Of a stretch of 64,000 nt of DNA, positions 10,297 to 36,244 are shown piece by piece. The stretch lies in NCBI GenBank assembly GCA_903841185.1, contig CAIMIV010000042.1, positions 11,319 through 75,318 of the forward strand, read 5' to 3'. The number at the start of each line of letters is the position of its first letter. Position 1 is the first letter of the stretch. The notes beneath the pieces were generated by a model, which made no database searches, had not been told where the DNA came from, and was given only the letters and a program-made list of their open reading frames with translations. The translations under genes and the position numbers were made by a program. This DNA comes from an uncultured bacterium (GTDB lineage: Bacteria; Patescibacteriota; Minisyncoccia; Moranbacterales; UBA2206).

Positions 10297-10346
10297 CCCT
10301 GCCTACCGGCAGGCAGGCAAACAAATCTCATCCGCCAGCTGGCGGA
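10297..10346. repeat. two short GC-rich palindromic hairpin sequences in the scpA-scpB spacer
   Basis: ccctgcctaccggcaggcaggcaaa is identical over 25 nt to 29464-29488. tccgccagctggcgga is identical over 16 nt to 22502-22517. Confidence 0.5.
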
Positions 10347-22954: not shown

Positions 22955-23815
22955 TTAATCCAGTGGGCTTTTGATAGTCTGCAAATTAGTATTGGCCACC
23001 CTGGTGTAGATCTGTGTCGTTTCAAGGCGTGCATGACCCAGCAACTCTTGGATATAGCGAATGCTCGTGCCGGCTTCTAAAAGGTGAGTGGCGAAAGAAT
23101 GGCGCAAGCTGTGGCAAGAAACTTTTTTAGCAATGCCGGCCAGCTCAACTGCTTTTTTAACTATTTTTTCAGCACTTTCAGCAGTCAGATGTCCTTGTCC
23201 ACCAGCTCCAGTAAATAAATAGTCATTTGGCTTCTTCAGGGTTAATTGTTTTTGTAATGTTGGAATGAGTTTTTCAGATAACAGTGTGCAACGATCTTTT
23301 CCTCCCTTACCTTGGCGAACCATAATCATTTTTCTATCCAAATCAAAATCGCACATTCGGATTTTGATTGTCTCACTAACGCGCAGACCTGCCGAATACA
23401 TTAGTGATATCAAAAAATTATGTTTGGGGTTAGTTGTTTTCTCGAGCATTCGTTCAATCTCTTCTTTACTAAGGATTGTCGGCAGATAGTTGGTTTTTTT
23501 GGCACCTTTTATATCAAAGAAAAATTTGCGTTTCAATATTTGACGGTAATAGAATTTAAGGGCATTAAGTGCAACATTCAGGGTGGAATTGGCACAGTCC
23601 TTGTCTTTCAAAGAGATTAGGTATTGGCGAATGTCATCATTGGTTACTAGTTTGGGGCTTTTATCAGTAAATTGCAAAAAAAGCTTATTATAAAGTACAT
23701 AAGACTTTATAGTTTTTGGGCTAAAACCCCTGATTCTCAACTCTTGTTCTAAATTATACAGAGGGTCTCGTTCTTGAGTTGTTGTTTTTCCATCCATATG
23801 ATAGTATGTGTTCAT
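22955..23815 (-). CDS. tyrosine site-specific recombinase, XerC/XerD-like
   Basis: Catalytic residues in RVSE, KGGKDR, HSLRHSFATHLL, LLGH and QIYTRV. Size is 286 aa. Confidence 0.8.
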   Translation of the reverse strand: MNTYYHMDGKTTTQERDPLYNLEQELRIRGFSPKTIKSYVLYNKLFLQFTDKSPKLVTNDDIRQYLISLKDKDCANSTLNVALNALKFYYRQILKRKFFFDIKGAKKTNYLPTILSKEEIERMLEKTTNPKHNFLISLMYSAGLRVSETIKIRMCDFDLDRKMIMVRQGKGGKDRCTLLSEKLIPTLQKQLTLKKPNDYLFTGAGGQGHLTAESAEKIVKKAVELAGIAKKVSCHSLRHSFATHLLEAGTSIRYIQELLGHARLETTQIYTRVANTNLQTIKSPLD

Positions 23816-23894
23816 ATGATAGTTATGATTACATCAAAATCATAGCATAAACCATTGCTCAAGCCAATAACTTAGCAGGTACGAATAAAACTAG

Positions 23895-24189
23895 TTATCG
23901 GAAATAATTTATCACCTATGAATGAAAAATACAAAAAAATAGCCTTATCAGCATATATTCTTACAGCTGCCTATTTATCGACCGTATATAATTTCATTGG
24001 TCTCGTGGGGGCTGATTTTATCTTGGCGATTTTGGTTGCGATTTTACTAAATAGCTTTTTAGCATATCTGATATGGTCGAGTGATAAAACGCGAAAGTAT
24101 TCGGCTATTATTTTGACGATATTATTGTTGTTGGCCGCTCTTCATTTGTTGCCAGTATTTTAAAGGTGGTGATAAATTACATCCGATAA
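23895..24189. repeat. 295-bp unit bounded by 22-bp inverted repeats, enclosing a small ORF
   Basis: Left ttatcggaaataatttatcacc (23895-23916) against the reverse complement of right ggtgataaattacatccgataa (24168-24189) matches at 20 of 22 positions. The enclosed ORF starts 2 nt after the left IR and stops 5 nt before the right IR. Confidence 0.45.
23918..24163 (+). CDS. small membrane protein (2 TM)
   Basis: 81 aa with two hydrophobic helices. Confidence 0.45.
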   Translation: MNEKYKKIALSAYILTAAYLSTVYNFIGLVGADFILAILVAILLNSFLAYLIWSSDKTRKYSAIILTILLLLAALHLLPVF

Positions 24190-24386
24190 CAAAGAATATC
24201 TGGTTCAAAAAATTTGCCACAACTAAAACTAAAAGGAGGGCAAATTTTTCTCTCCCAAATCCCGCACTTTTCCGTTTTGTTGTAATTTAGAGTATAATGA
24301 GATGAATAAATAAATAAGAATATTAAGGTTTTGTGCCTAAAAGCCAAAGTGCAGGACTTCAGATATTCTTAAACGTTAAACGAAAT
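24187..24386 (+). repeat. copy 1 of a ~200-bp island repeat
   Basis: Begins taacaaagaatatctggttc and ends cttaaacgtta. Contains the hairpin aaaaatttgcc..ggcaaattttt with AAGGAGG in the loop and a tagagTATAATgag -10-like box. It is more than 90 percent identical to copies at 24886 and 29396. Confidence 0.7.
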
Positions 24387-24440
24387 TTTGTTCAAAAATA
24401 TTTTTTCATTTTTTATTGAGCCTTTTTGAAATTTTTTTAG

Positions 24441-24486
24441 AAAAAAGAAAGCCCCAGGTGGAATTGAATTTTCCACGAGGGGCTTA
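24441..24486 (-). terminator. rho-independent terminator for minus-strand small gene
   Basis: Hairpin agccccaggtggaa..ttccacgaggggct with a T-run on the minus strand. Confidence 0.45.
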
Positions 24487-24506
24487 GTTGTTGGCGTGTA
24501 ATGCGC

Positions 24507-24749
24507 TTATAAGTAACAAACGGGTCCGTTCTCACCTTTTTTTGTGTAAATTAGTGAAACCATTTGTGCAATAAGGCAGACCAGAAAAAATTCATACCTG
24601 CTTCCATTGATTTTTGGAATGTCAAATACCACGCTTGTGATTGCACTTAACATTCCAATGGTCCCCATAATTACGCCGATCCAGGCAAAAAACGTGTTAT
24701 TTTTATGCCAAATTTCTTTCATTATGACATCCTCCTTTTCGAGTTTCAT
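24507..24749 (-). CDS. small membrane protein
   Basis: 80 aa, two TM helices, followed by a terminator. Confidence 0.4.
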   Translation of the reverse strand: MKLEKEDVIMKEIWHKNNTFFAWIGVIMGTIGMLSAITSVVFDIPKINGSRYEFFLVCLIAQMVSLIYTKKGENGPVCYL

Positions 24750-24885
24750 GGTTTAATGTACTGTTTAACACCAAAATTAGCGTTCAAAGTAGCATAGCAG
24801 AAAACCAGTAACCCGTCAAGCCCACGGCCAAAAAATTTCAAAAAGGCTCTTTTAATAAGGAATATATTTTTGAACAAAACATCGT

Positions 24886-25088
24886 TTAACAAAGAATATC
24901 TGGTTCAAAAAATTTGCCGCAGTTAAAAACTAAAAGGAGGGCAAATTTTTCTCTCCCAAATCCAGCACTTTTCCGTTTTGCTGTAATTTAGAGTATAATG
25001 AGATTAACAAAGTAAATAGGAATATCAAGGTTTTGTGCATAAAAACCAAAGTGCAGGACTTCAGATATTCTTAAACGTTAAGTGAAAT
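24886..25088 (+). repeat. copy 2 of the ~200-bp island repeat
   Basis: Near-identical to copy 1 and lies upstream of the + strand ORF at 25216. Confidence 0.7.
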
Positions 25089-25215
25089 AAATCTTTATCT
25101 TTGTGGAAATTTCGAGCCAGGTTGCGTTGAACCAAGACGAAAATTTGATTTTTTTAAAAGTTTTTCCGCCACAGGCGGGATTATTTGGGGCTATTTTATT
25201 TTTAAATATAAAAAT

Positions 25216-26001
25216 ATGGAAAAAATTAACAAAAGCACAACACTGTTATTAAGTTCTTTTGCATTACTTCTGGTGCTAATCATTGCTGGGGTCATATCTT
25301 TCAAAAAAGAAATATCAACCTTAAAAAAAACACAGCAGTCATTATTACAAGAGAATGCGAAACTAAAGCAGGTCACAATTACTGATTCTCCTCAAAAAGC
25401 TCCCGTTGCTGAAATAACGGTTGGCAGTCCATGCGATGTGAATAATGGAAATATTTTAAATTCTAAGGGTCTGCAATGTTATTTTTATGATAGCTTAGAT
25501 TCAAGTGGAAATGAAATATTTCCTCGACACGGGGTATGGATTAAGCCTGATTTACGAAATATGCAAATTGATTCAAAGCTATATGAAATATATTTTAAGT
25601 CATGGAAAAAATATGTAAGTCCGGATAAAACTATTAGTTTTTCTTACCCACAAAACTGGAAAGTTGATGAGTCAAGTTGGAAGGATGGTAACTTATCTAT
25701 ACAATCAAGTGACTATTCACCGATATCAATTTCTAAGATTGAAAATAATGCTATTACAATAGAGCAGAGAATTAGTGATGATGAAAATGATAGACCATTT
25801 GAGAGAACTATTATCGAATTAAATGGCGTTAGTGGCACGAGACTCGACATCGCCCCAAAAGATAATTTAAGTGACCAAGAGCAAATAAAATTCTATTTTC
25901 AAAAGGATAAATATTACGTTGAATTAAGTGTTGCAAAAGCTGGATATGCTGCGTATGATTTTCCGACAGAATATTTATTGAGTACGATAAAAATAAAATA
26001 G
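25216..26001 (+). CDS. secreted or membrane-anchored hypothetical protein
   Basis: 261 aa with an N-terminal signal/anchor helix and no recognisable domain. Confidence 0.5.
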   Translation: MEKINKSTTLLLSSFALLLVLIIAGVISFKKEISTLKKTQQSLLQENAKLKQVTITDSPQKAPVAEITVGSPCDVNNGNILNSKGLQCYFYDSLDSSGNEIFPRHGVWIKPDLRNMQIDSKLYEIYFKSWKKYVSPDKTISFSYPQNWKVDESSWKDGNLSIQSSDYSPISISKIENNAITIEQRISDDENDRPFERTIIELNGVSGTRLDIAPKDNLSDQEQIKFYFQKDKYYVELSVAKAGYAAYDFPTEYLLSTIKIK

Positions 26002-26117
26002 CCCCAAATAATTGTTTTGCCATTCTGCAAAACAAAAACTTTTAAAAAAAATCAAATTTTCTATTAGCATGGATAAAGTTTGTGCTAATAAAAATGAAGA
26101 TAAAAATTTACATCACT

Positions 26118-26298
26118 TAACACGGCATATGCGGTTCAAAAATTTTGCGCTATTATATTTCAAGGAGTGCAAAATTTCCTCTCCCAAATTGCGCTGACGG
26201 AATGGCAAGTTTAGTGATATAATCAAGATAAGCGAAATTAACAAAATAATCAATCAATCCACGGCGCAACTTCGCATGTGCCGATACGTTAGACGAAA
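26118..26298 (+). repeat. diverged copy 3 of the island repeat
   Basis: Shares the start tacatcacttaac, a hairpin with compensatory changes (aattttgc/gcaaaatt), AAGGAG in the loop, ctctccc and a gtgaTATAATc box. It ends cgttagacgaaat. Confidence 0.5.
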
Positions 26299-26435
26299 TA
26301 AATTTATTTTATTTTTTAAATTCGCTTTTTATAATAAGAAAAAATAAGTTTTTTTATCTATTTATATAGGGGTAAAAAGGTGTTTTCTCCGCTGAGGCTG
26401 CGAAAACGGATTTATTAATATAATTTGTTTATATT

Positions 26436-28172
26436 ATGCAAAAAAATAACGAGATTGATTCATTAAAATTCAGCTGGGGTGATTTGGCGCGAGCGATTTT
26501 ATATTTATTTGGGGAAAAGAAAAATGAATATCTTTTTTCTTTGTTTGTCGTGGCTGTATTTAATTTATACGTAATTGTGCCGCCTTTGATAATTGGAAAA
26601 GTGATTGATTTTTTCAGCACATACAAATCAGGTGAATCGTTGAATACTTTTTATTTTTATGTGATTTTTCTGGGAATTTTCATTGGCGCCGTGCATTATT
26701 TCAATCTCTCCGCAATCCAGAAATTTCTACGTCTTAGCAACGAGTTAGTTTATAAGATTCGCGTCCAGGGCTTTGAGAAGTTATTGGAACAATCACTGTC
26801 CGAGCATGGTGAAGAAAATACAGGCGCCAAAAATCAAAAGATTCAAAATGGCGTGACGGCTTTTAATTTGTTTTCCGAAGCCTTGAATGACAGAATACTT
26901 CCCTCAATAGCGACGCTAGTCGGTGTTTTTGGCGTATTTTTGTATTTGAATTTTATCTATAATATTATTCTGATCGCTTATTTAATTGGCTTTGTCTACA
27001 TCCTTAGATTTTTCAGAAAGAAATTCGTAATGCTTCATTATGAAAAGAGTTTAGCTATGGAAAAATCAAGTGGTACTTATATTGAAGGTTTGAGCAATAT
27101 TACCACGATTAAGGCTAGTGGTGCAGAAAAAAATTTCAAAAGATCAGTCAGCAAAAACGAAGAGGCACGTAATTTTTTTGATCAAGAGATTTTGCGTGTC
27201 CGTGTAAATCAGTGGAAGTTATTTAACATTTATAACGGTATTTATACGGGAATATTTTTGTTTGTTATTGGTAGGGATGTAATCGCTGGCGTGGTTTCGA
27301 TCGGATCAATTGCAATTTTGTTGGCTTATTTAGAGAAAATAACCGACGCATCTGGCAAAGTGCTTGGTATGTATGGCTATTTAATTGACAAAAGAACATC
27401 TATCGCCCGCATGATGACTATTTTTTGGGCTGATAACAATATTTTAACTGGCGAAAAAGAATTCCCAGTCGATTGGCAGGAGATAAAATTAAGCAATGCG
27501 AGTTATGCTTATAAAAATGAAAAAAACACTAAAACTAATATTAACGGTGTCAATCTGGTGATTCAAAAAAACCAAAAAGTTGGCATCATTGGCACAACTG
27601 GCAGTGGCAAATCAACGCTTGTAAAATTATTGCTTGGCCTATACCCGCTTGATAAAGGAGAATACAAAATCGGCACAACTAATTTTTATGACATCAAGCA
27701 TGATGAAATATTCAAGCACATAGCAATTGTCTTACAAGAGTCGGAAATGTTCAATATTTCACTCAAAGAAAATATTGCGTTAAGTGAAAAAATTGATGAA
27801 GGGCGTTTATTGCACGCGATCAACATTGCTCAATTGGATGAGGTGGTGAAAAGCTTACCTAATGGCTTTGAAACTTTAATCGGGGAAAAGGGATACCATC
27901 TTTCTGGCGGCGAACGCCAACGCGTCGGCATTGCTCGAGCGATTTATAAAGATCCTGAAATTATGATTTTTGACGAAGCTACTTCATCACTTGATGTGCA
28001 AACAGAAAAGAAAATTCAAAAAGCACTTTTGGACAATCTTCAGCAAAAAACTATTATCATAGTCGCACATCGAACGAATACCCTGGAAAAAGTAGATGTT
28101 ATCTATAAAGTGGAAGGTGGAAAAATTGTTCAACAAGGAAGTTATGAGGAGTTTTTTGGTATTCACCAATGA
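26436..28172 (+). CDS. ABC transporter, fused permease/ATP-binding subunit
   Basis: TM domain plus GTTGSGKSTL, LSGGERQRVGIARA, IMIFDEATSSLD and VAHR. Confidence 0.85.
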   Translation: MQKNNEIDSLKFSWGDLARAILYLFGEKKNEYLFSLFVVAVFNLYVIVPPLIIGKVIDFFSTYKSGESLNTFYFYVIFLGIFIGAVHYFNLSAIQKFLRLSNELVYKIRVQGFEKLLEQSLSEHGEENTGAKNQKIQNGVTAFNLFSEALNDRILPSIATLVGVFGVFLYLNFIYNIILIAYLIGFVYILRFFRKKFVMLHYEKSLAMEKSSGTYIEGLSNITTIKASGAEKNFKRSVSKNEEARNFFDQEILRVRVNQWKLFNIYNGIYTGIFLFVIGRDVIAGVVSIGSIAILLAYLEKITDASGKVLGMYGYLIDKRTSIARMMTIFWADNNILTGEKEFPVDWQEIKLSNASYAYKNEKNTKTNINGVNLVIQKNQKVGIIGTTGSGKSTLVKLLLGLYPLDKGEYKIGTTNFYDIKHDEIFKHIAIVLQESEMFNISLKENIALSEKIDEGRLLHAINIAQLDEVVKSLPNGFETLIGEKGYHLSGGERQRVGIARAIYKDPEIMIFDEATSSLDVQTEKKIQKALLDNLQQKTIIIVAHRTNTLEKVDVIYKVEGGKIVQQGSYEEFFGIHQ

Positions 28173-28232
28173 CCTCAAACATGATAAAATAAAGATAAGT
28201 TTCACTGCCTATTTTAATAAAATACAAAATTC

Positions 28233-29255
28233 ATGTCCAAAAACAATCATAAAATTAGCATAAAAGACGAATTGACCGAATTTCTGCTTTACACAGCCCC
28301 AAGTGGCAAGGTAAAAGTAGAAATTTACTTTCATGACGAAAATATTTGGCTTACCCAAGACAAAATGGCCAAATTATTTGGCGTGCAACAACCAGCTATT
28401 GCCAAACACTTGAAGAATATTTTTGAAAGCGGTGAATTGCTGGAAAATTCAGTTCATTCCATTTTGGAATATACTGCCAGCGATGGCAAAAAGTATCAAA
28501 CCAAATTTTATAATCTTGACGCCATAATTTCCGTTGGATATCGGGTAAATTCAGCTCAAGCTACTCAATTTCGCATCTGGGCAACAGAAAGGCTTAAAGA
28601 GTACATCATAAAAGGTTTCACCATAGATGATGAGAGATTGAAGAATGGAAGATATTTTGACAAAGATTATTTTCTCGAACTTTTGGAAAGAGTCCGTTCA
28701 ATTCGTGCTAGTGAGCGAAAAATTTATCAGCAAATTACGGATATTTTTGCTGAATGTAGTATGGATTACAGTCCAACATCAGAAATTGCTAAAAATTTTT
28801 ATGCAATGATTCAAAATAAATTCCATTTTGCTATTACTGGCAAAACTGCAGCTGAGATTATTTATGAGACGGCTGACAAGCAAAAACCATTTATGGGACT
28901 TAAGACTTGGAAAAATTCACCAAATGGCAGAATTATCAAATCCGACACAGTTATCGCTAAAAATTATCTTAACGAGGATAAAATAAAAAAACTGGAAAGA
29001 GGCATTGTCGGCTATTTTGATTACATTGAAAGATTGATTGAGAATCACACCGCTCTCACGATGGAAAAGTTGGCGGAATCTGTAAATAACTTTTTGGAGT
29101 TTAACAAGTACGAAGTGCTTGAAGGAAAGGGCACGATTTCTCATGCCCAAGCAGAACAAAAAGCGTTTCAAGAATATGACGAATATAATAAGACGCAGGC
29201 AATAGAATCTGATTTTGACAAACTTGTAAAATCTTTACCGACTGGAGAAAAATAA
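28233..29255 (+). CDS. RhuM-family virulence/DNA-binding protein
   Basis: N-terminal VKVEIYFHDENIWLTQDKMAKLFGVQQPAIAKHL and the AIISVGYRVNS region match the RhuM family. Confidence 0.65.
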   Translation: MSKNNHKISIKDELTEFLLYTAPSGKVKVEIYFHDENIWLTQDKMAKLFGVQQPAIAKHLKNIFESGELLENSVHSILEYTASDGKKYQTKFYNLDAIISVGYRVNSAQATQFRIWATERLKEYIIKGFTIDDERLKNGRYFDKDYFLELLERVRSIRASERKIYQQITDIFAECSMDYSPTSEIAKNFYAMIQNKFHFAITGKTAAEIIYETADKQKPFMGLKTWKNSPNGRIIKSDTVIAKNYLNEDKIKKLERGIVGYFDYIERLIENHTALTMEKLAESVNNFLEFNKYEVLEGKGTISHAQAEQKAFQEYDEYNKTQAIESDFDKLVKSLPTGEK

Positions 29256-29395
29256 GGAGTTTTGAATTTTAGGCATTCCCGCCAGAGGCGGACAGGCATC
29301 CCTGACCCCTCTGCCCAAAATCCAAAACAAAAAAACTTATTTAATCTATTTAGAATAAAAAGCGAATTTAAAAAAGAAAATAAATTTACATCGTC

Positions 29396-29615
29396 TAACA
29401 AAGAATATCTGGTTCAAAAAATTTGCCGCAGTTAAAAATACAAGGAGGGCAAATTTTTTTCTCCCCTGCCTACCGGCAGGCAGGCAAATCCCGCACTTTT
29501 CCATTTTGTCGTAATTTAGGGTATAATAGGATTAATAAATAAATAGGAATATTAAGGTTTTATGCATAAAAACCAAAGTGCAGGACTTCAGATATTCTTA
29601 AACGTTAGGTGTAAT
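29396..29615 (+). repeat. copy 4 of the ~200-bp island repeat carrying a 22-bp palindromic insertion
   Basis: Same as copies 1 and 2, except that ctgcctaccggcaggcaggca is inserted after ctccc. The same 25-mer occurs at 10297. Confidence 0.7.
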
Positions 29616-29652
29616 TTATTTAAAATCCCTTAAAAAATAAATTAAGAAAAAT

Positions 29653-29955
29653 ATGACAACAATAAATGAGTTTCAAGAAATGTGTGCCAAGGTGGTGGGG
29701 GAGATTGACGCAAAATATGGCATTGCTCGTGACCCGCATTTTAGCTTCACACAATTTATGGAAGAAGTTGGTGAACTGGCGAAAGAGATAAATAAGCCGA
29801 AGTTGCGCAACAAAGAAATGGATCGGGAAAATTTGAACGGTGAATTTGCCGACGTCATCTTGCAGTTTTTCACACTTGCCAGTATGCTAGAAGTAGATGT
29901 GGAAAAGGCAGTTGAAGCTAAAATGGCGATACTGAAAGAGCGACATGATTTATAA
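29653..29955 (+). CDS. MazG-like nucleotide pyrophosphohydrolase domain protein
   Basis: 100 aa with the EEVGELAKEI...EFADVILQ pattern of the MazG/NTP-PPase all-alpha fold. Confidence 0.55.
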   Translation: MTTINEFQEMCAKVVGEIDAKYGIARDPHFSFTQFMEEVGELAKEINKPKLRNKEMDRENLNGEFADVILQFFTLASMLEVDVEKAVEAKMAILKERHDL

Positions 29956-29972
29956 TTTTAAATTACAATCCT

Positions 29973-30392
29973 ATGGGAAGGGAACAACCGCCGACATTTG
30001 ATCCGCGTGATGAGAAATATAAAAAAGTGGAGGATTTGCCGGAAGAAGAGCAGGAGAATTTTGTAAAAGTGAATGGTGGATTTATTACGCAAAAGGCCAA
30101 GCGCTTTGAGGACGCGGTTTTGAAGCAGGAGGAATTGCTTAATCCAAAGATCTTTAGGGGAAAAACTGCTGACATAATTCAAAATAGCTTGAAGGAGTCA
30201 CCGGAGGAATATATAAAGCACCATCGGCGACTAAGGCGGTGTAAAGCGTGGGCCGCTGGAGAGGAAGCCGCTGTGGCCGAAAAAAATATTATGCCGAATG
30301 AGGAGACTATTCCGGAAGACGCTAGTACGGCGGATGGACAGTCAGCTTTGACAGAAGAGGAATTGTCTGAAAAAACATGCAAAAGAATATGA
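29973..30392 (+). CDS. hypothetical acidic protein
   Basis: 139-aa ORF with no motif; its 3' end overlaps the next gene. Confidence 0.35.
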   Translation: MGREQPPTFDPRDEKYKKVEDLPEEEQENFVKVNGGFITQKAKRFEDAVLKQEELLNPKIFRGKTADIIQNSLKESPEEYIKHHRRLRRCKAWAAGEEAAVAEKNIMPNEETIPEDASTADGQSALTEEELSEKTCKRI

Positions 30393-30778
30393 AAAAAGAT
30401 AACAGAAAAAATAGCCGGCGCAGCCTGGTTTTTGTATTAGGTGCTATTTTGTGGTTGAGTGTTATTTTTTTATTTTCTGCCGAGCCGAATTTGCGCTCAC
30501 CTTTTTCCTATAACGTAGATTTCGTTTTACGCAAAATAGCGCACATTGTGGAATATCTTATTTTGACGGTGCTGGTATGGAAGGCTTTGTTGCCGCGAGC
30601 CAAAGGCAACTTGTTGCTGGCGGTTTTTTTGATAGTCTTGAGCGCGGCGGTTTTGGATGAATGTCATCAATTGTTTGTCGCAGGGCGGGAAGGCACGCTC
30701 CGCGACGTGTTGTTTGACGCGGGGGGAATTTTCATTGCTTGGTATTTTATTATTAGAAAAAAAAATGAAAAAAGATAG
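30377..30778 (+). CDS. VanZ-like membrane protein
   Basis: Hydrophobic helices and LDECHQLFVAGREGTLRDVLFDAGG typical of the VanZ family. Confidence 0.55.
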   Translation: MQKNMKKDNRKNSRRSLVFVLGAILWLSVIFLFSAEPNLRSPFSYNVDFVLRKIAHIVEYLILTVLVWKALLPRAKGNLLLAVFLIVLSAAVLDECHQLFVAGREGTLRDVLFDAGGIFIAWYFIIRKKNEKR

Positions 30779-31790
30779 CATCATTGAATTGGAGATGGGT
30801 GGCGGGGGAGAAAAATCATCGCAACTGATTGCGCAGATCCGGAAAAATTTCACGGTGAAGTCCAAATGGAAAAATAGCGCCGATGATGGAGCTGTTTTTG
30901 ATCTTGGTATAAATAATGTGGAGACGCCCCGCCAGGGCGTCTCCACAGCGTCGGATAAATTGGTGTTCACCACGGATGCTTTTATTGTGGATCCGATTTT
31001 TTTTGCCGGCGGCGACATTGGCAAGATTGCTATGTGTGGCACCATCAATGATTTATGCGTGATGGGCGCGCAGCCGATTGGCATTGGTTTGAGTGTGGTA
31101 ATTGAAGAAGGCTTTCCCGTAGATGATTTGGAAAAAATTATGCAGTCTATTGGAAAAATTTCCCAGGAAACCGGCGTGCCGATTGTGACGGGCGACACTA
31201 AGGTGACGGAAAAAGGCAAGCTCGACAAAATTGAAATTACTACATCGGGTGTCGGTTTGGCTAAAATAATAATCAATAATGGTGGAGCCAAGGTGGGCGA
31301 CGCCGTGATTGCCTCGGGCAATCTCGGCGAACACGCGGTGGCGCTTTTGGCGAGCCGCTTTAATTATAAAACAAAAATCCAGAGCGATTGTCAGCCCTTG
31401 ATTAAAGAAATTCAGAATGTTTCCCCGTATCTTACCTCGTGCAAAGACCCGACCCGCGGAGGTATGGCGGCGGTGCTTAATGAAATCGCGGAAAAATCTA
31501 AAGTAAAAATTGTTCTGGAGGAAGAGCTGTTGCCGTTTGCCAAGGAAACGGTGGCACTTTCCGGACTCTTGGGCATTGATAAATTTTCCTTTCCTTCTGA
31601 AGGGCGCTTTGTGGCCACGGTGCCGGAAAAACAGGCCAAAAAAGTGATTAAAATGCTGCAAAAATTCAATCCCGAGGCTAAAATTATCGGCCACGTGGAG
31701 CGTGGACGAGGCGTGCACCTGCAAACATCGCTAGGCAGCAGCAAAAAAATCGAAGTACCGCGAGGAAAGCTAATCCCGCGAATTTGTTAG
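30765..31790 (+). CDS. hypE: hydrogenase maturation protein HypE
   Basis: PurM-like fold, N-terminal ELEMGGGGE, and the C-terminal PRIC motif carrying the thiocyanate-carrier cysteine. The start is taken at the ATG at 30765. Confidence 0.8.
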   Translation: MKKDSIIELEMGGGGEKSSQLIAQIRKNFTVKSKWKNSADDGAVFDLGINNVETPRQGVSTASDKLVFTTDAFIVDPIFFAGGDIGKIAMCGTINDLCVMGAQPIGIGLSVVIEEGFPVDDLEKIMQSIGKISQETGVPIVTGDTKVTEKGKLDKIEITTSGVGLAKIIINNGGAKVGDAVIASGNLGEHAVALLASRFNYKTKIQSDCQPLIKEIQNVSPYLTSCKDPTRGGMAAVLNEIAEKSKVKIVLEEELLPFAKETVALSGLLGIDKFSFPSEGRFVATVPEKQAKKVIKMLQKFNPEAKIIGHVERGRGVHLQTSLGSSKKIEVPRGKLIPRIC

Positions 31791-33119
31791 AAAATATATA
31801 ATCTGCCCAAATGAAAGTCCAGCGTCGCCACGCGGAATTTGCACAACCGGTATCCTTGAGGAGGAGCCGGTTTTTTTATTTTCAAAATATTCAGAAATTA
31901 TTTTGTTGTTGGCGATTCCGCCGGCGATAAAGATTTGTGGTGAGCAACTTTTGGATTGCAGTTCAATAATCTCGCTCAAGCCTTCAGCGATGTAGCGCTG
32001 GGCAGTCGCAGCCAGCCTCCTTTTGTCTTTGTTTATATTTTTAATTAGATATTCAAACAAATAAGTTGTATTCAGTATGTAATGTTTTTTTGAAAATTTA
32101 GTCATTGAAAATTCATTGTAAATTGTAAATTGTAAATTGGAAATTGAAGGGCTTTCCATAACTTCAATCTTTGGTTTTATATCCATATAGGGCTTACCGG
32201 AGTTGCTTTCTAAGAGGTCTATCGCTTCGTGTTTGTAGGTTCTCTTATTGTCGCAAAAACCCAGTAGCAGCGAGACGGCATCTAGGATGCGACCCGTGCT
32301 GGAAGTTTCCAGACAATTAAAATTTTGTTGAAGTTGATTATACAGAACTTCAAATTCCTGCGCGGAATAATATTTTTTCGCGAAATTGTAGATAAAGTTT
32401 TTTTGAGATTTGAGATTTGAGATTTGAGATTTGTTTGTCCCTTGTTTTTTGTAGCTTGTGATTTTATCAAGTATCGCGATTAGCATTCTCGCCGGCTCCT
32501 GAATAGCCAACTCTCCTCCCAGCAATATTTGATTTTCCAAATGCCCAACGCGCTCATTGGAAATTTTAAATTTTAAATTTGTAATTTTAAATATCTCTCC
32601 TCCCCAAATTTTCTCATCTAATCCATACCCCGTTCCATCGAGAGCAATTCCGAAAAAGTTTTGAGTTTTGAGTTTTGAGTTTTGAGATTTGTTTGTATCT
32701 TGTGTCTTGTATCTTGTATCTTGCGTGAGCTCTCCCAATTGGGAGAAGATATGGGCCACGTGGTGTTGAACCTGGACATGCTCAGCTTTAAATTTTTTTG
32801 CTAATTCCTTTCCCCATAAAGTGGTGTTCATATCCGGGTGCAGGTCAGTGATGATGACATCCGGCGTAACGGATGTTTTTTTGAGAAACGCTAGGACAGT
32901 CTTTTGAAAGGCCTTGAAATTAGCGTCTTCTTGGAGATCGCCAAAATCAGGGGAGAAAAAAAGTTGACCATTTTTGAAAAAGGAAAAATTGCCAGCCGAT
33001 TCGGCTCCTAGAGAGAGGATTTGTTGAATGGTGGAATGAGGGTATTTAAAAATTTGCATGATTCGGGTAAAAAGATTATATATGTATGTAGTGTATAATA
33101 GAAATAATGAATTTGACAA
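31770..33119 (-). CDS. HypF-like carbamoyltransferase, Kae1/YgjD-like domain only
   Basis: TDLHPDMNTTLW and VQHHVAH match the HypF C-terminal domain. No acylphosphatase, Zn-finger or YrdC domain is present. Heptanucleotide tandem repeats encode low-complexity inserts. Confidence 0.55.
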   Translation of the reverse strand: MSNSLFLLYTTYIYNLFTRIMQIFKYPHSTIQQILSLGAESAGNFSFFKNGQLFFSPDFGDLQEDANFKAFQKTVLAFLKKTSVTPDVIITDLHPDMNTTLWGKELAKKFKAEHVQVQHHVAHIFSQLGELTQDTRYKTQDTNKSQNSKLKTQNFFGIALDGTGYGLDEKIWGGEIFKITNLKFKISNERVGHLENQILLGGELAIQEPARMLIAILDKITSYKKQGTNKSQISNLKSQKNFIYNFAKKYYSAQEFEVLYNQLQQNFNCLETSSTGRILDAVSLLLGFCDNKRTYKHEAIDLLESNSGKPYMDIKPKIEVMESPSISNLQFTIYNEFSMTKFSKKHYILNTTYLFEYLIKNINKDKRRLAATAQRYIAEGLSEIIELQSKSCSPQIFIAGGIANNKIISEYFENKKTGSSSRIPVVQIPRGDAGLSFGQIIYFLTNSRD

Positions 33120-33270
33120 ATCACGTCACTGTGTTATAAATAAGATTAAGAAGAAAAAAACTATGAATTATTCTTATACACAACAAAATAACTGGCGGCA
33201 TATTCAACTCTTGTAGGAAGAGCTTGGTTATGTTTTGTTATGTATAAAAACAATCACACATAAATATCCA

Positions 33271-33296
33271 ACCCCTTCCTGGAAGGGTTTTTTTGT
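33271..33296 (+). terminator. plus-strand intrinsic terminator-like hairpin
   Basis: cccttc ctg gaaggg followed by ttttttt. Confidence 0.4.
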
Positions 33297-33403
33297 ATGC
33301 AAAAAAGGTTTTTCTTGGAAGGCAGTTCTTTTAAAAGGTCTATTTCAATAGATAAATTGTTTGTCAAAAATTTAAGTGTGTCTGAGGCACAAGGAGGTGG
33401 AAA

Positions 33404-34195
33404 ATGGGTAAATATGGCGCATGGCAAGTGGGTGCAGGCATGGCGACATTGGGAGATTTGTCAATACCAATTACCCGGGACAAGCCGGGGGTATATGCTC
33501 GCGGAGAATATGGCGCGTTTTCTTCGGAAAGACGTGTAGCGATTTCAGGAGTGTGTTTGTTTGACGCTCGTTGGAGCGTGGAGTTCTCTACGGGCGGTGT
33601 GCGGTCAATCGCTTTGCCGTTGGATCGCTCGCGGGTACAAGATCGTATCCGGGAGCGGGGTTTTGAAGTCTCGCGGGTGATTTTTCCGTTGACGCTGACG
33701 GATTATCACACCAAGCTGTTGCATTTTGTTGCCAATACGGTGGAAAAATTGCAACCGGAAAAGTTGCTTTTCCATATTCCAATTGATGAATATTACGTGT
33801 ATATCCAGGAACTGGAAACGTTGATTGGGGGTGTGATTCCCGATGCCCAGGAGATTCTGGCGGGTTTTGCCGGGAAAGTGACGGACTGTTTTCGGGCAGA
33901 AATGCAGCGGGTCAAATTCGAGCGCTTTGAATTGATCCGGCCGATGCAGTGTGGCGCGGCGGATACGGAGCAATCCTATGCTATGCCCTACCAACAGCCA
34001 GAAGTTTTTGGCACAAACAAGGAGGCAATTTATGCTATTGAGGACCTGGTCGAAATGAAGATTGCTTTATTGACAGAGCAATGTCAGGGATACACCGTGC
34101 CAGTGAAATTCTGCGTGCTGGATATCCCGCATCCCTACGTAACTTTTTCAAAGAAGAATGTTATGCGGGGTGACATGGCAACGGTTTCTCTCTAG
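33404..34195 (+). CDS. hypothetical protein (higher GC than surroundings)
   Basis: 263 aa. A strong SD aggaggtg lies 7 nt upstream. No recognisable motif. Confidence 0.5.
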   Translation: MGKYGAWQVGAGMATLGDLSIPITRDKPGVYARGEYGAFSSERRVAISGVCLFDARWSVEFSTGGVRSIALPLDRSRVQDRIRERGFEVSRVIFPLTLTDYHTKLLHFVANTVEKLQPEKLLFHIPIDEYYVYIQELETLIGGVIPDAQEILAGFAGKVTDCFRAEMQRVKFERFELIRPMQCGAADTEQSYAMPYQQPEVFGTNKEAIYAIEDLVEMKIALLTEQCQGYTVPVKFCVLDIPHPYVTFSKKNVMRGDMATVSL

Positions 34196-34336
34196 GGAGT
34201 GGTCTTCATGGCGACATGTCTAACCATACCTCATCTGTTATTATTACAGATGAGGTATGGTATATTAAATGAATGCAGGAGTTTTAAAAATTAACAATAG
34301 GCCTATTGTGTAATGAGTTGCGTAACAGGTCTAATA

Positions 34337-35328
34337 TTTGTTTTATGAAAATTACAAAGTACAATGTGGATACATATATCCAGGGGAGTGTCTTTTTTGG
34401 CACCGGGGGTGGCTTGCCGGGTGATTTGCACCAAAAAATATTTCAAGATTTACTGGACAGTACGGATGAAATCAATGCGCATCCATTGGAAGCATTCCCG
34501 GATGAGGCGATATTGGTTTCGGCGTATGGCGTGGGCGACCCGTCAAAAATTCCGGAGAATTTCGTGGACAAGGTGCGAGAGGGATTTGCAAAATATAAAA
34601 AATTGACAGGCATAAAAATTGCCGGAATTGTTCCAGGGGAAATCGGTGCAGAGGGATTGGCTTTTCAAGTGGGGGCGTGTGTGGATCTGCCTATTGTGGA
34701 CGCCGATCTTGTAGGTGGGAGAGCTGCTCCGGAAATACAACTAGATGTTTTTAGTGTTTTCGGATTGCCAATAGTCCCAGTGGTTTTGTATGCCATGAAT
34801 GACAAGAGTATTTTTCTGGAAGGCAATTTTAGCGCGCAGGAAATAGAGCATATTTCACGTAATTTCTTCGCGCAAAATGGAGACAGCGGCTTCTTGATCG
34901 GTTATGGCATGTCAGCAGGAGAATATAAGAAATATGCGATGGCAGGCACTTTGTCGCAGACGATGCGAGCAGGGGAATTATTGCACGCTAAAAATAGCGC
35001 CGGCCTGGTAAGTTTGTTTGACGGGAAGATTATGAGCGAGGGGGTTATAGAGGCAGTAGAATTGAAGAGTCAGGATGGTTTTTTGGTAGGAAAAATTAAG
35101 CTCGCAGGAGGCGTGATGGAGGTCAAGAATGAGAACATTTCTTTTTTGCAAAAAAATGGTTCATTGGTGCAAGCACCGGACATCCTGATATTGCTTGCTG
35201 ATGATGGCACTCCTATACATAATACAAAAATAGCTGCCATGGTTGGACAGCACGTACGATTGATTTATCTGCCGGCGCAGGGATACTGGAATAGTGTCAT
35301 AGGGCGAGAACTATGGGAATTGCGGTAG
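34337..35328 (+). CDS. hypothetical protein, possibly DUF917-like
   Basis: A GTGGGLPGD glycine-rich N-terminus. The family assignment is tentative. Confidence 0.4.
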
Positions 35329-35428
35329 TGAATTATTACGCAGCAGGTCTGGCTTATAGATATTCAAAACATAAAAAATGTGGTAGAATATAAGTATTAA
35401 AAAGAGTGAAGAAAAAATAAAAAATATT

Positions 35429-36199
35429 ATGGAAGAAAATATTAAAAAACCCCGAGTAGCCATTGTCAGTCTGACGTCTTGTGAAGGTTGTCAATTTGCT
35501 CTCCTGGACTTGGGAGAGAAGTTTATCGAATTTGCCACGCAGGTGGAGTTGGTGGATTTTCGTTTGATCGAGGATGAGGAAGATGACGGCCGGGAATTGG
35601 ATTTGGTGTTGGTGGAAGGCAATCCGGTGACGGAAGCTAATTTGAAAACATTGCAGTCGCTGCGCAAAAGAAGCAAGCTTTTAGTGGCCTTAGGAAATTG
35701 TGCGGCCATGGGAGGAGTGCCCGAAATTAAAAATTATCACGAAGGAGTGAACACCATCAAGCACGTCTACAAATATATTCATGGCATTAACAACCCTGAA
35801 ATCAGAGAGATTGATAATTTTGTGAAAGTGGATTTCACTTTTCCGGGATGTCCGATTACGGGAGAAGAATTTTTGCAATATATCCCGTTTCTTTTACGCG
35901 GTGAGATTCCCACAATTCCCGATCAACCGGTGTGTGTGGAATGTCGCGCGGCTGGCAATCGCTGTTTGCTGCTCGATAAGAAGCCTTGTTTTGGTCCGAT
36001 GATCCAAGGAGGGTGTGGCGCGGTTTGTCCCACTTCACGTATGACCTGCCAAGGTTGTCGCGGTTTGCGCCCCACGGGAAATGTCAAGGCGATGCGAGCG
36101 GCGCTTAAGAATATGATTAGTGACCATGAGTTTGAAAATATCGCGGAGATTTTCGGTTTGCGCGATGATATTGAGGCTAGGGAAAAAGAAACGAAATAA
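35429..36199 (+). CDS. NiFe hydrogenase small subunit (group 3-like, delta-type)
   Basis: N-terminal SLTSCEGCQ and GNCAAMGG, plus C-terminal Fe-S cysteine clusters CVECRAAGNRC and CGAVCPTSRMTCQGC. Confidence 0.8.
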   Translation: MEENIKKPRVAIVSLTSCEGCQFALLDLGEKFIEFATQVELVDFRLIEDEEDDGRELDLVLVEGNPVTEANLKTLQSLRKRSKLLVALGNCAAMGGVPEIKNYHEGVNTIKHVYKYIHGINNPEIREIDNFVKVDFTFPGCPITGEEFLQYIPFLLRGEIPTIPDQPVCVECRAAGNRCLLLDKKPCFGPMIQGGCGAVCPTSRMTCQGCRGLRPTGNVKAMRAALKNMISDHEFENIAEIFGLRDDIEAREKETK

Positions 36200-36244
36200 A
36201 TTTAGTTAACTAATTAGGAGGAATAATCACTACTTATCAAAAAT

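What the first reader, a model, noticed from the sequence alone, without database searches (positions are those of the whole stretch)
24187..29615. The island repeat contains a conserved hairpin with compensatory substitutions, an AAGGAGG loop and a downstream TATAAT box
In copies 1, 2 and 4 the stem is aaaaatttgcc/ggcaaattttt. In the diverged copy 3 it is aattttgc/gcaaaatt, so pairing is kept despite sequence change. All four loops end in AAGGAG(G/T), followed by ctctccc. About 45 nt later comes a (t)agagTATAAT or gtgaTATAAT -10-like box. Covariation suggests a functional RNA or DNA structure (terminator plus promoter unit, small RNA, or recombination site), not neutral repeat decay.
Basis: seen in the sequence. 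Interest (0 to 1): 0.5.

Follow-up and report, generated by a model that had tools for sequence, protein, structure and literature searches.

The report
Integron-like cassette recombination sites in CPR bacteria
The four repeats are the folded recombination sites that close each gene cassette in an integron-like array beside a Xer-like recombinase lacking the hallmark integron-integrase domain, and I found no published description of this platform, which recurs across Patescibacteria (CPR) bacteria.

Summary
Four about 210-nt direct repeats each carry the hairpin, the AAGGAG loop end, CTCTCCC and a TATAAT.

The repeats are attC-like recombination sites. Each has an R-box pair (NNN-TAAC / GTTA-NNN), an 11-bp second stem and a three-way junction. 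The TATAAT sits in the loop of the other arm.

A 286-aa tyrosine recombinase (22955-23815, minus strand) lies divergently upstream. An about 80-bp attI-like region follows it, and its conservation across relatives stops exactly at AGTT.

The variable triplet to the right of each repeat is complementary to the triplet to the left of the next repeat. That is the integron cassette signature.

The same architecture recurs in over 200 sites across many Patescibacteria phyla, with massive covariation. A homologous recombinase sits divergent and upstream in 13 of 14 loci where one is in range.

The recombinase lacks the IntI-specific domain. The sites are longer than canonical attC (85-300 nt), share conserved sequence motifs, and cassettes carry 18-66+ nt terminal inverted repeats.

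Promoter function of the TATAAT is plausible but unproven. Hairpin 1 does not fit an intrinsic terminator. I found no published description.

The parts
22955..23815 (-). Tyrosine recombinase of 286 aa. It is Xer/IntI-like and lacks the IntI-specific extra domain.
   Evidence: Pfam Phage_integrase 9e-39 plus Phage_int_SAM_4. NCBIfam NF040815 scores 234 bits (cutoff 220), and TIGR02249 integron integrase scores 228.9 bits, below its cutoff of 265. The best PDB hit is VchIntIA 2a3v, matched in two pieces: query 195-208 faces 2a3v 185-240. It is the only copy in the window.
23816..23896 (+). attI-like region. It is conserved among relatives up to ...ATAAAACTAG|TT, with the G at 23894. It contains the palindrome ATGATT-ACATCAA-AATCAT near 23826-23846.
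   Evidence: In the alignment of 7 loci (recombinase 60-100% identical), conservation stops exactly after AGTT(R). Homology between the window and L001, L004, L007, L009 and L138 ends at 23905-23912.
23895..24375 (+). Cassette 1. Its 81-aa membrane-like ORF is at 23918-24163, and site copy 1 is its 3' part.
   Evidence: The 5' end TTATCGGAAATAATTTATCACC is complementary to GGTGATAAATTACATCCGATAA, 23 nt at 91% (I12). ORF.
24179..24386 (+). attC-like site, copy 1. Left box ACATC-CGA-TAAC; stem 2 AAGAATATCTG / CAGATATTCTT; right box AAAC-GTTA-AAC-GAAAT.
24208..24249 (+). Arms are 24208-24218 and 24239-24249, and the loop ends in AAGGAG at 24233-24238.
24293..24298 (+). TATAAT box of copy 1, inside the loop of hairpin 2. 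The hairpin 2 stem is CCCGCACTTT / AAAGTGCAGG.
24376..25077 (+). Cassette 2. Its 80-aa ORF is at 24507-24749 on the minus strand, and site copy 2 spans 24879-25088.
   Evidence: Inverted ends at 24375-24437 and 24830-24890 (I2 and I3). Triplets AAC / GTT.
24908..24950 (+). Hairpin 1 of copy 2. The TATAAT of this copy is at 24994-24999.
25078..26288 (+). Cassette 3. Its 261-aa ORF is at 25216-26001 with a weak PsbP_2 hit, and site copy 3 spans 26110-26299.
   Evidence: Inverted ends span about 130 nt, 25077-25204 against 25988-26121 (I10, I6, I5). Triplets AGT / ACT.
26140..26177 (+). Hairpin 1 of the diverged copy 3, AAATTTTGC / GCAAAATTT. TGATATAAT, an extended -10-like box, is at 26215-26223.
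   Evidence: Promoter scan: CTGACG-18-TATAAT with a TG.
26289..29604 (+). Cassette 4. It holds an ABC transporter (578 aa, 26436-28172) and RhuM (340 aa, 28233-29255), and site copy 4 spans 29388-29615.
   Evidence: 50-nt inverted ends at 90%, 26288-26337 against 29350-29399 (I1). Triplets GAC / GTC. Pfam.
29417..29458 (+). Hairpin 1 of copy 4. A 19-nt palindrome is inserted at 29466-29484, and the TATAAT is at 29522-29527.

Best explanation
The repeat is the attC-type recombination site of an integron-like gene-cassette array in a Candidatus Moranbacteria (Patescibacteria/CPR) chromosome.

**Layout (shown).** The order is recombinase gene (minus strand), an attI-like region, then four cassettes on the plus strand. 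Each cassette ends in one repeat.

**Anatomy of a site (shown).**
- Outer R stem: NNN-TAAC pairs with GTTA-NNN.
- An asymmetric bulge, A on one side and AAAC on the other.
- An 11-bp stem 2.

**Mechanism (inferred).**
- The recombinase recombines folded single strands, probably the bottom strand, at the AAC|GTT core. This excises a cassette as a circle and inserts circles at attI.
- On circularisation the cassette's own 5' end completes its site. That is why the sequence to the right of repeat N is complementary to the sequence to the left of repeat N+1.
- Pairing in hairpin 1 is kept because the strand has to fold. Its sequence is otherwise free, apart from a conserved AAGG at the 3' end of the loop, whose role is unknown.
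- In long-form sites such as these four, the hairpin 2 loop carries a -10-like box. It may transcribe the next cassette.
For: **Cassette signature**
- In the window, the right triplet of repeat N is complementary to the left triplet of repeat N+1: AAC/GTT, AGT/ACT, GAC/GTC. The attI-side TCG matches CGA. The surrounding 28-nt flanks are 19-25 of 28 complementary.
- Family-wide, 26 of 61 consecutive pairs and 31 of 66 are complementary, against 7-8% for random pairs.

**Platform**
- The recombinase sits directly upstream and divergent.
- The attI-like region is conserved in 7 loci, and conservation ends exactly at AGTT.
- Window-to-relative synteny runs from the recombinase side to 23905 and stops there. 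Beyond that point only the repeats match.
- A recombinase homologue lies within 8 kb in 14 of 119 scanned loci. It is divergent and upstream of the array in 13 of those 14.
- No locus of 84 has sites on both strands.

**Structure**
- Hairpin 1 shows double changes in 5/5 pairs, hairpin 2 in 6/6, and stem 2 in 11/11.
- 93% of cells are paired, against 35-47% when the partners are slid.
- Stem 2 was also found from sequence anchors alone: 79 of 178 are 11/11 complementary, against 4% in the control.

**Strand**
- The bottom strand folds better in 99 of 113 sites.
- A.C mismatches on the top strand outnumber G.T by 27 to 11.

**Cassette properties**
- Median cassette length is 1044 bp. The largest ORF is co-oriented with the array in 21 of 24.
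- Reconstituted circular junctions fold at -44 to -84 kcal/mol, against -29 to -46 in the array context.
- One cassette is first in the L040 array and at least fifth in the L051 array, at 81% identity.
- Array GC is 0.34, against 0.41-0.43 in the flanks.
Against: - No recombination has been observed. Two other assemblies of the same population show the same first two cassettes, so there is no direct sign of turnover within the population.
- The recombinase lacks the IntI-specific domain. The literature describes that domain as necessary for integron recombination (PMC9668308, PMC8138268).
- About half of the 'consecutive' site pairs fail the triplet rule. Likely reasons are missed intermediate sites or decayed arrays, but neither was proven.
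- The bottom-strand advantage could partly reflect G over C composition.
- The role of the long cassette-specific inverted repeats is unexplained by the canonical integron model.
- The promoter role of TATAAT rests on consensus only. The cassette after copy 1 has its ORF on the opposite strand.
Confidence: 0.8

Rival explanations
1. Terminator plus promoter unit. Hairpin 1 would stop transcription of the upstream cassette. The TATAAT would restart it, so the repeat is mainly an expression insulator.
For: - A perfect TATAAT is present in 4 of 4 copies.
- Copy 3 has TG-n-TATAAT with CTGACG 18 nt upstream. Copy 4 has TTTCCA-18-TATAAT.
- -10-like boxes recur in the hairpin 2 loop of three long-form subfamilies, while neighbouring bases vary.
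- An A-run precedes the hairpin and a T-run follows it in the window copies.
Against: - The terminator scan does not call hairpin 1. Its loop is 17-28 nt and its stem has only 2-3 G-C pairs.
- Short-form relatives keep hairpin 1 but have no T-run and no -10 box. Neither feature therefore belongs to the conserved core.
- Promoter-like hits are not above chance in the region.
- This idea does not explain the terminal boxes, the triplet rule, or the link to the recombinase.
Confidence: 0.3
2. A structured non-coding RNA, either a small RNA or a cis-regulatory element, is encoded by each repeat. Covariation would then reflect RNA folding.
For: Covariation is strong in three helices. Single-stranded motifs are conserved: GGTTC, TCCACCC, CAWAT, AAGG.
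Against: - No Rfam family matches at E up to 1.
- The better-folding strand is antisense to the cassette genes.
- Most short forms have no promoter-like box.
- An RNA does not explain why the flanks of successive copies are complementary, nor why conservation breaks at attI.
Confidence: 0.07
3. Duplex Xer/dif-type recombination (IMEX-like). The recombinase would be the cell's Xer enzyme, attI would be dif, and cassettes would pile up by ordinary double-strand site-specific recombination. No single-strand folding would be involved.
For: - The recombinase is of Xer length and lacks the IntI domain.
- CPR recombinases of this kind have been classed as Xer-related ('Cand' subgroup, PMC8138268).
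- The sites carry conserved sequence motifs, unlike canonical attC.
Against: - GC skew stays positive (+0.07 to +0.25) across the whole 64 kb with no switch at the array. The locus is therefore not at a terminus.
- Duplex sites need no intrastrand pairing, yet three helices covary. There are 57 different stem-2 arms and 27 hairpin-1 arms.
- The strand asymmetry also argues against it.
- The sites are 85-300 nt long, not about 28 bp.
Confidence: 0.1
4. A miniature transposable element (MITE-like) with terminal inverted repeats, copied into intergenic palindromes.
For: The repeat has terminal inverted repeats (TAACAAAGAATATCTG ... CAGATATTCTTAAACGTTA). It occurs in many genomes at high identity: 92% between the window and L001, where flanking genes are 68-75%.
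Against: - Insertion into a palindrome would make the two flanks of one repeat complementary. Instead the flanks of one cassette are complementary. Same-element triplets match in only 16 of 150.
- There are no target-site duplications.
- All copies in a locus share one orientation.
- Copies cluster next to the recombinase.
Confidence: 0.03

Closest known systems
Sedentary chromosomal integrons (for example the Vibrio cholerae superintegron with VCR-type attC sites; IntIA structure 2a3v)
   Same: - A divergent tyrosine recombinase, then attI, then an array of mostly one-gene, co-oriented cassettes.
- Each cassette ends in a similar imperfect-palindrome site.
- The core is a conserved AAC...GTT.
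- The cassette's 5' end is complementary to its own R'' box.
- The bottom strand folds better.
- Sites within one array are highly similar.
- The array has lower GC than its flanks.
- The bottom strand appears to lie on the leading-strand template. This is inferred from skew; that natural integrons have this orientation is from my own recollection of the literature.
   Different: - The recombinase lacks the IntI-specific insertion.
- Sites are 85-300 nt with a three-way junction.
- Single-stranded sequence motifs (ACATC, GGTTC, TCCACCC, CAWAT, ACWTC) are conserved across phyla.
- There is a 1x4 asymmetric bulge where the usual extrahelical bases would be.
- Cassette ends are inverted repeats of 18-66 nt and more, beyond the R box.
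- Many sites carry a -10-like box.
- The hosts are Patescibacteria.
Archaeal integrons (Ghaly et al. 2022, PMC9668308)
   Same: Cassette arrays with folded attC sites exist outside the classical bacterial hosts. Many of those arrays have no detectable integrase nearby. Some of my pattern hits lie in MAGs labelled Woesearchaeota or Altiarchaeum.
   Different: Archaeal IntIs are reported to retain the IntI-specific domain. The enzyme here does not. Whether the archaeal-labelled hits are real or binning errors was not tested.
Xer recombinases and dif / IMEX elements; the 'Cand' subgroup of simple tyrosine recombinases (Smyshlyaev et al. 2021, PMC8138268)
   Same: The enzyme has the size and domain layout of XerA/XerC/D. 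It scores above the NCBIfam XerA cut-off. CPR enzymes of this type were grouped as Xer-related.
   Different: The locus is not at a skew switch. The sites are long folded structures rather than 28-bp duplex sites. The array shows cassette logic rather than whole-element integration.
pdif modules of Acinetobacter plasmids
   Same: Gene modules are bounded by Xer-type sites.
   Different: pdif sites are 28-bp duplex sites in alternating orientation. Here all sites are direct repeats of 85-300 nt with internal structure. This comparison was not tested beyond those features.

Membership tests
Integron (IntI + attI + attC cassette array) | Tyrosine recombinase with a complete catalytic domain, encoded next to the array and divergent from it | tested here: met
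   Pfam Phage_integrase 9e-39. R..K..HxxR..H..Y motifs are visible in the translation. The gene is divergent and adjacent here, and in 13 of 14 other loci.
Integron (IntI + attI + attC cassette array) | IntI-specific additional domain around patch III | tested here: not met
   In the alignment to VchIntIA, 12 query residues (195-208) face about 54 residues (185-240). TIGR02249 scores 228.9, below its cutoff of 265, in two stretches. All close homologues are 280-290 aa.
Integron (IntI + attI + attC cassette array) | attI: a conserved site next to intI where conservation ends at the G|TT crossover | tested here: met
   Seven loci share about 80 bp ending ...ATAAAAnnAGTT and then diverge. Synteny breaks at 23905.
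Integron (IntI + attI + attC cassette array) | attC with R''(RYYYAAC)...R'(GTTRRRY) and an inner L''/L' stem | tested here: met
   NNNTAAC / GTT(A/G)NNN with an invariant AAC/GTT. The 11-bp stem 2 covaries at 11/11 pairs and was also found from anchors alone.
Integron (IntI + attI + attC cassette array) | Extrahelical bases in the L box that mark the recombined strand | tested here: inconclusive
   There are no clear single extrahelical bases in stem 2. Instead there is a conserved asymmetric bulge (A against AAAC) and a CA/AA mismatch outside the R box.
Integron (IntI + attI + attC cassette array) | Cassette boundary rule: the start of a cassette is complementary to the R'' box of its own attC | tested here: met
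   4 of 4 in the window. Family-wide 26/61 and 31/66, against 7-8% by chance.
Integron (IntI + attI + attC cassette array) | attC conserved in structure but not sequence, 57-141 nt long | tested here: not met
   Lengths are 85-300 nt. Sequence motifs are conserved across many phyla.
Integron (IntI + attI + attC cassette array) | Site-specific recombination of the folded bottom strand | not testable with these tools
   Only indirect evidence: the bottom strand is more stable in 99 of 113 sites and there is a wobble bias of 27 to 11.
Xer/dif chromosome dimer resolution site (and IMEX) | An about 28-bp duplex site at the replication terminus (GC-skew switch) | tested here: not met
   Skew is positive throughout the 64 kb. 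The sites are 85-300 nt.
Intrinsic terminator | G+C-rich short-loop hairpin followed by a T-run | tested here: not met
   The scan does not call it. Short forms lack the T-run.
Sigma-70-type promoter | -35 and -10 hexamers at 16-18 nt spacing, giving a transcription start | tested here: inconclusive
   The -10 is perfect in 4 of 4 copies. The -35 passes the scan's cut-off only in copies 3 and 4. -10-like boxes recur in relatives. No expression data are available.
Known structured RNA family (Rfam 15) | Match to a covariance model | tested here: not met
   No match at E up to 1 over 23700-29800.
MITE / transposon | Terminal inverted repeats with a target-site duplication, inserted independently | tested here: not met
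   Flank complementarity spans cassettes, not repeats. Orientation is uniform within each locus.

The most novel reading that the evidence does not exclude
Patescibacteria carry a phylum-spanning, previously undescribed class of integron. Its integrase is a Xer-like 'Cand'-type recombinase without the IntI domain. Its cassette sites are long three-way-junction DNA structures with conserved sequence motifs. Its cassettes carry long terminal inverted repeats.

This would be either the ancestral state from which classical integrons evolved or an independent invention of the same logic. The optional modules inside the sites (the AAGG loop and a -10 box) would make each site a self-contained expression unit.
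Probability: 0.5. Interest if true: 0.88.

Novelty: new variant of a known kind. Interest (0 to 1): 0.8.

Why it matters
**Where cassette systems exist.** Integrons are defined by an integrase with a special extra domain, and surveys look for that domain. They are thought absent or rare in many lineages. A cassette platform run by a plain Xer-like enzyme across the CPR superphylum would mean those surveys miss a whole class. It would also give these tiny-genome, host-dependent bacteria a dedicated route for swapping accessory genes.

**How integrons arose.** It bears on two open questions:
- How integrons arose from Xer-type recombinases.
- What the extra domain is really needed for.

The system has the cassette logic without the domain. 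Its sites have conserved sequence motifs that could replace structure-only recognition.

**Where cassettes come from.** The long cassette-specific inverted repeats may be a clue to how cassettes are made, or to how they fold out of duplex DNA.

Tried and rejected
- **Rfam search** of 23700-29800 at E up to 1: nothing.
- **MITE idea:** rejected on the flank pattern.
- **dif/terminus idea:** rejected, since there is no skew switch.
- **Hairpin 1 as terminator:** the scan does not call it.
- **Further site after copy 4:** I searched for a partner of copy 4's right flank and found none, so the array ends there.
- **Short-form covariance model R1 on the window:** it did not span the long-form sites. 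It gave only weak partial hits (E 0.06-0.9), including an internal pseudo-left-half inside each repeat.
- **First two regex attempts at right-end detection:** both failed through offset errors and were redone.
- **MAFFT alignment of the long hairpins (A4):** it was not structurally consistent, being one column out of register in some rows. I therefore counted pairs with a register-free script instead.
- **Viral contigs:** only 4 pattern hits, not followed up.
- **Other assemblies with the identical recombinase (L136, L137):** these are the same array, so they give no evidence of turnover within the population.
- **Small ORF after AAGGAG:** there is no start codon at a suitable distance (sequence).
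- **Literature:** seven searches found no description of CPR integrons or of these sites.

Full report
**1. Observation**

The region holds four direct copies of an about 210-nt repeat on the + strand: 24179-24386, 24879-25088, 26110-26299 and 29388-29615.
- The stem AAAAATTTGCC / GGCAAATTTTT is in copies 1, 2 and 4.
- The stem AAATTTTGC / GCAAAATTT is in copy 3. It carries one true double change and one change to G.T.
- The loops end in AAGGAG(G/T), and CTCTCCC follows the 3' arm.
- A TATAAT lies about 44 nt after the 3' arm.

The 24-nt motif occurs 4 times against 0 expected. No further copies exist in the 64 kb.

**2. What the repeat is**

- Each copy starts ACATC-NNN-TAAC-A-AAGAATATCTG.
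- Each copy ends CAGATATTCTT-AAAC-GTTA-NNN-GAAAT.

The outer pair TAAC/GTTA and an inner 11-bp pair therefore close the whole element. Both strands are predicted to fold that way, with z of -4.2 and -4.6.

The NNN triplets are not complementary within a copy. The triplet to the right of copy N is complementary to the triplet to the left of copy N+1: AAC/GTT, AGT/ACT, GAC/GTC. The triplet left of copy 1 (CGA) matches GTTATCG at 23894.

The complementarity continues outward for 23 to about 130 nt and is specific to each inter-repeat segment (I1, I2, I3, I5, I6, I10, I12). This is the signature of integron cassettes: the first bases of a cassette complete its own attC when the cassette is a circle.

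Directly upstream and divergent lies a 286-aa tyrosine recombinase, 22955-23815 on the minus strand.

The segments between repeats hold one or two genes each:
- an 81-aa membrane protein
- an 80-aa protein on the opposite strand
- a 261-aa protein
- an ABC transporter plus RhuM

**3. Relatives**

Homologues of the recombinase come from Candidatus Moranbacteria and other Patescibacteria. All are 280-290 aa.

I fetched the loci of homologues at 77-89% identity (L001, L004/5, L007, L009).
- The same repeat forms arrays next to the recombinase gene and on the opposite strand.
- The cargo is entirely different: Cupin_2, AAA_33, PQ-loop, HAD, a type I methylase, Fic, Bro-N and others.

Comparing the window with L001:
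- The recombinase-side genes are collinear at 68-75% nucleotide identity up to 23905.
- Beyond that point only the repeats match, and they match at 92%.

Aligning the region between the recombinase start and the first cassette in seven loci shows an about 80-bp conserved stretch. Two of these, L008 and L011, have a recombinase 60-78% identical. The stretch ends ...ATAAAAnnAGTT, and similarity stops at once after it. That is what an attI-cassette junction looks like.

**4. Distribution**

I scanned one genome per species with the left-box pattern ACATCNNNTAACANNNNATATNNGGTT.

Most hits are in Patescibacteria: Moran-, Saccharibacteria, Uhr-, Magasanik-, Falkow-, Staskawicz-, Campbell-, Nomura-, Kuenen-, Berkel-, Peregrinibacteria, WWE3 and Komeilibacteria. 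A minority are in MAGs with other labels. With 18 specified bases in about 600 Gb, some hits are chance.

The common form is about 88-112 nt. In order it reads:
- ACATC-NNN-TAAC-A
- stem 2, 5' arm
- GGTT(A/C)
- hairpin 1
- TCCACCC-AWATT
- hairpin 2
- ACWTC
- stem 2, 3' arm
- AAAC-GTT(A/G)-NNN-GAAAT

The window's copies are a long form. Hairpin 1 has a long A/T-rich loop, and the hairpin 2 loop is expanded to about 80 nt.

A covariance model built from 32 short forms found 214 sites (E up to 0.001) in 100 loci. There are up to nine per 8 kb, and all sites within a locus lie on one strand.

**5. Is the structure selected?**

Yes.
- **32 short forms aligned by sequence only:** hairpin 1 shows double changes in 5/5 pairs and hairpin 2 in 6/6. 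87% of cells pair, against 24-40% when the partners are slid.
- **150 model-aligned sites:** 93% pair against 35-47% slid, and 24 of 26 pairs show double changes. The caveat is that this alignment is fitted to the model.
- **Stem 2, checked without using complementarity to find it:** from sequence anchors alone, 79 of 178 are 11/11 complementary against 4% in the control, with 57 different arms.
35 of 35 distinct long forms keep at least 8 of 9 Watson-Crick pairs, with 27 different arm sequences. Non-cognate arms reach 9/9 in 7%.

The only conserved loop bases are AAGG just before the 3' arm, present in about 30 of 35. Short forms lack it, so it is not part of the core.

**6. Cassette logic family-wide**

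- The triplet rule holds in 26 of 61 consecutive pairs (regex set) and 31 of 66 (model set), against 7-8% for random pairs. Where it holds, 18-27 of the 28 flanking bases are complementary. Failures are probably due mostly to undetected intermediate sites, but this is not proven.
- In 25 clean cassettes the median length is 1044 bp. The largest ORF is co-oriented with the array in 21 of 24. Ungapped terminal inverted repeats run 18-66 nt.
- Joining each window cassette's 3' site to its own 5' end gives one long hairpin. These fold at -44 to -84 kcal/mol, against -29 to -46 for the hybrid sites in the array.
- One cassette is the first in the array of L040, next to the recombinase. At 81% identity it is at least fifth in the array of L051. 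That is evidence of movement.
- A recombinase homologue (40-50% identity, no large insertion) lies within the 8-kb locus in 14 of 119 loci. It is divergent and upstream of the sites in 13 of those 14.

**7. Which strand folds?**

- The bottom strand folds better in 99 of 113 unique sites, with either DNA or RNA parameters.
- Mismatches in stem 2 that would be G.T on the bottom strand outnumber the reverse by 27 to 11.
- GC skew is positive across the whole window. By inference the bottom strand is therefore the leading-strand template. From my own recollection of the literature, natural chromosomal integrons have this orientation.
- The absence of a skew switch also argues against attI being a terminus dif site.

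**8. The recombinase**

- The catalytic motifs are intact.
- The best solved relative is the Vibrio integron integrase 2a3v (E 8.5e-49), ahead of archaeal XerA-type enzymes. The alignment is split: about 54 residues of IntIA (185-240) face 12 residues here.
- NCBIfam places it just above the XerA/'integron integrase' cut-off and below the integron-integrase cut-off.
- The extra domain is treated as defining and necessary for integron integrases (PMC9668308; PMC8138268).
- CPR enzymes of this kind were grouped as Xer-related 'Cand' recombinases with a presumed housekeeping role.

So the system works like an integron but fails one defining membership test.

**9. Terminator, promoter, RNA**

- **Terminator:** hairpin 1 is not called by the terminator scan. 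In short forms it has no T-run.
- **Promoter:** the TATAAT is perfect in all four copies.
  - Copy 3 has an extended -10 (TGATATAAT) plus CTGACG at 18 nt, and copy 4 has TTTCCA at 18 nt.
  - Copies 1 and 2 have only TTTCCG (3/6).
  - Promoter-like hits are not enriched overall, 27 against 24.1.
  - Related long forms keep -10-like boxes at this place in three subfamilies (TAGAGTATAAT; TTTAGTGATATAAT; GTGCGATAAAAT) while neighbouring bases change.
  - A cassette-internal promoter is therefore plausible, at about 0.4, but untested.
  - The cassette after copy 1 carries its only sizeable ORF on the other strand.
- **RNA:** no Rfam family matches.

**10. Comparison and novelty**

The closest known systems are sedentary chromosomal integrons.

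Shared features:
- the order of the platform
- the attI junction
- the AAC/GTT core
- the cassette boundary rule
- the bottom-strand bias
- co-oriented small cassettes

Differences:
- no IntI domain
- sites of 85-300 nt with a three-way junction and conserved single-stranded motifs
- an asymmetric bulge rather than clear extrahelical bases
- long cassette-specific terminal inverted repeats
- optional AAGG and -10 modules
- the host group

Seven full-text searches found no description of integrons or such sites in Patescibacteria. That library is incomplete, so prior description cannot be excluded.

I class this as a new variant of a known kind.

**11. Shown versus inferred**

Shown:
- the anatomy
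- the covariation
- the cassette rule
- the attI break
- the recombinase adjacency and its missing domain
- the distribution

Inferred:
- that this recombinase acts on these sites
- that the folded bottom strand is the substrate
- that the crossover is at G|TT
- that the TATAAT is a promoter

Unexplained:
- the AAGG motif
- the conserved junction motifs
- the long terminal inverted repeats

Noticed in passing
window 10299-10317 and 29466-29484; L001 2363-2381 and 3619-3637; L098 224-243: A 19-nt GC-rich palindrome, CTGCCTACCGGCAGGCAGG, is inserted in copy 4 of the repeat and at a second, unrelated place in the window (4 strand-matches against 0.01 expected). It also sits inside sites of other genomes at different positions. 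It looks like a tiny mobile palindrome.
   Followed up: partly
window 24303-24386, 25007-25088, 29532-29615: The short-form model finds a weak internal second 'left half' inside each long repeat: ...TAAATAAGAATAT, then a GGTTTTGTGCCTAAAAGCC hairpin resembling short-form hairpin 1. Scores are E 0.06-0.2. The long form may be a short site with an inserted or fused module, or it may have an alternative fold.
   Followed up: no
window 24179-25088 versus L001 6915-8435: The repeats are 91-93% identical between the window and L001, while the orthologous flanking genes are only 68-75% identical. The sites (or their cassettes) are therefore either exchanged between lineages or under very strong constraint.
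   Followed up: partly
L004 3962-4036 (minus strand): A right box (CAGATATACTGAAACGTTATCGGAAAT) is followed after 17 nt by a left box (ACATCCGATAACAAGTAATATCTGGTTAC). This looks like an 'empty' cassette of about 45 nt, or a duplex-palindrome form of the core site.
   Followed up: no
window 23826-23846: The conserved palindrome ATGATT-ACATCAA-AATCAT lies between the recombinase start codon and the attI crossover and is invariant in most relatives. It could be an operator or an extra recombinase-binding site. It contains the ACATC motif found in the sites.
   Followed up: no
loci L016, L017, L021, L030, L033, L057, L058, L059, L064, L065 and others: Near-identical sites and cassette ends occur in MAGs labelled Gammaproteobacteria, Bdellovibrionales, Woesearchaeota, Altiarchaeum, Nitrospirae and Mycoplasmatota. 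One example is ...AAAAGAAAAGGAATACATCAGCTAAC.... This is either binning contamination by CPR contigs or transfer across phyla and domains.
   Followed up: no
L138 1086-1963 and L139 1068-1938: In a relative with a 90% identical recombinase, an AbiEii/DUF6922 pair is inserted between the recombinase gene and prmC. These two genes are adjacent in the window.
   Followed up: no
window 46584-55682: A single ORF of 3032 aa lies in a stretch with raised GC (0.46-0.48) and near-zero GC skew, unlike the rest of the window.
   Followed up: no
window 30657-37504: HypE-like (AIRS), HypF-like, and NiFe-hydrogenase small and large subunit genes lie just beyond the end of the array.
   Followed up: no
window 24000-30000: The array has clearly lower GC (0.34-0.35) than its flanks (0.41-0.43).
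   Followed up: yes
PDB entry 9i5v chain 14: A 401-residue chain named 'Ribosome-associated translation inhibitor RaiA' matches the recombinase catalytic domain at E 5.8e-18. The name looks inconsistent with the sequence.
   Followed up: no
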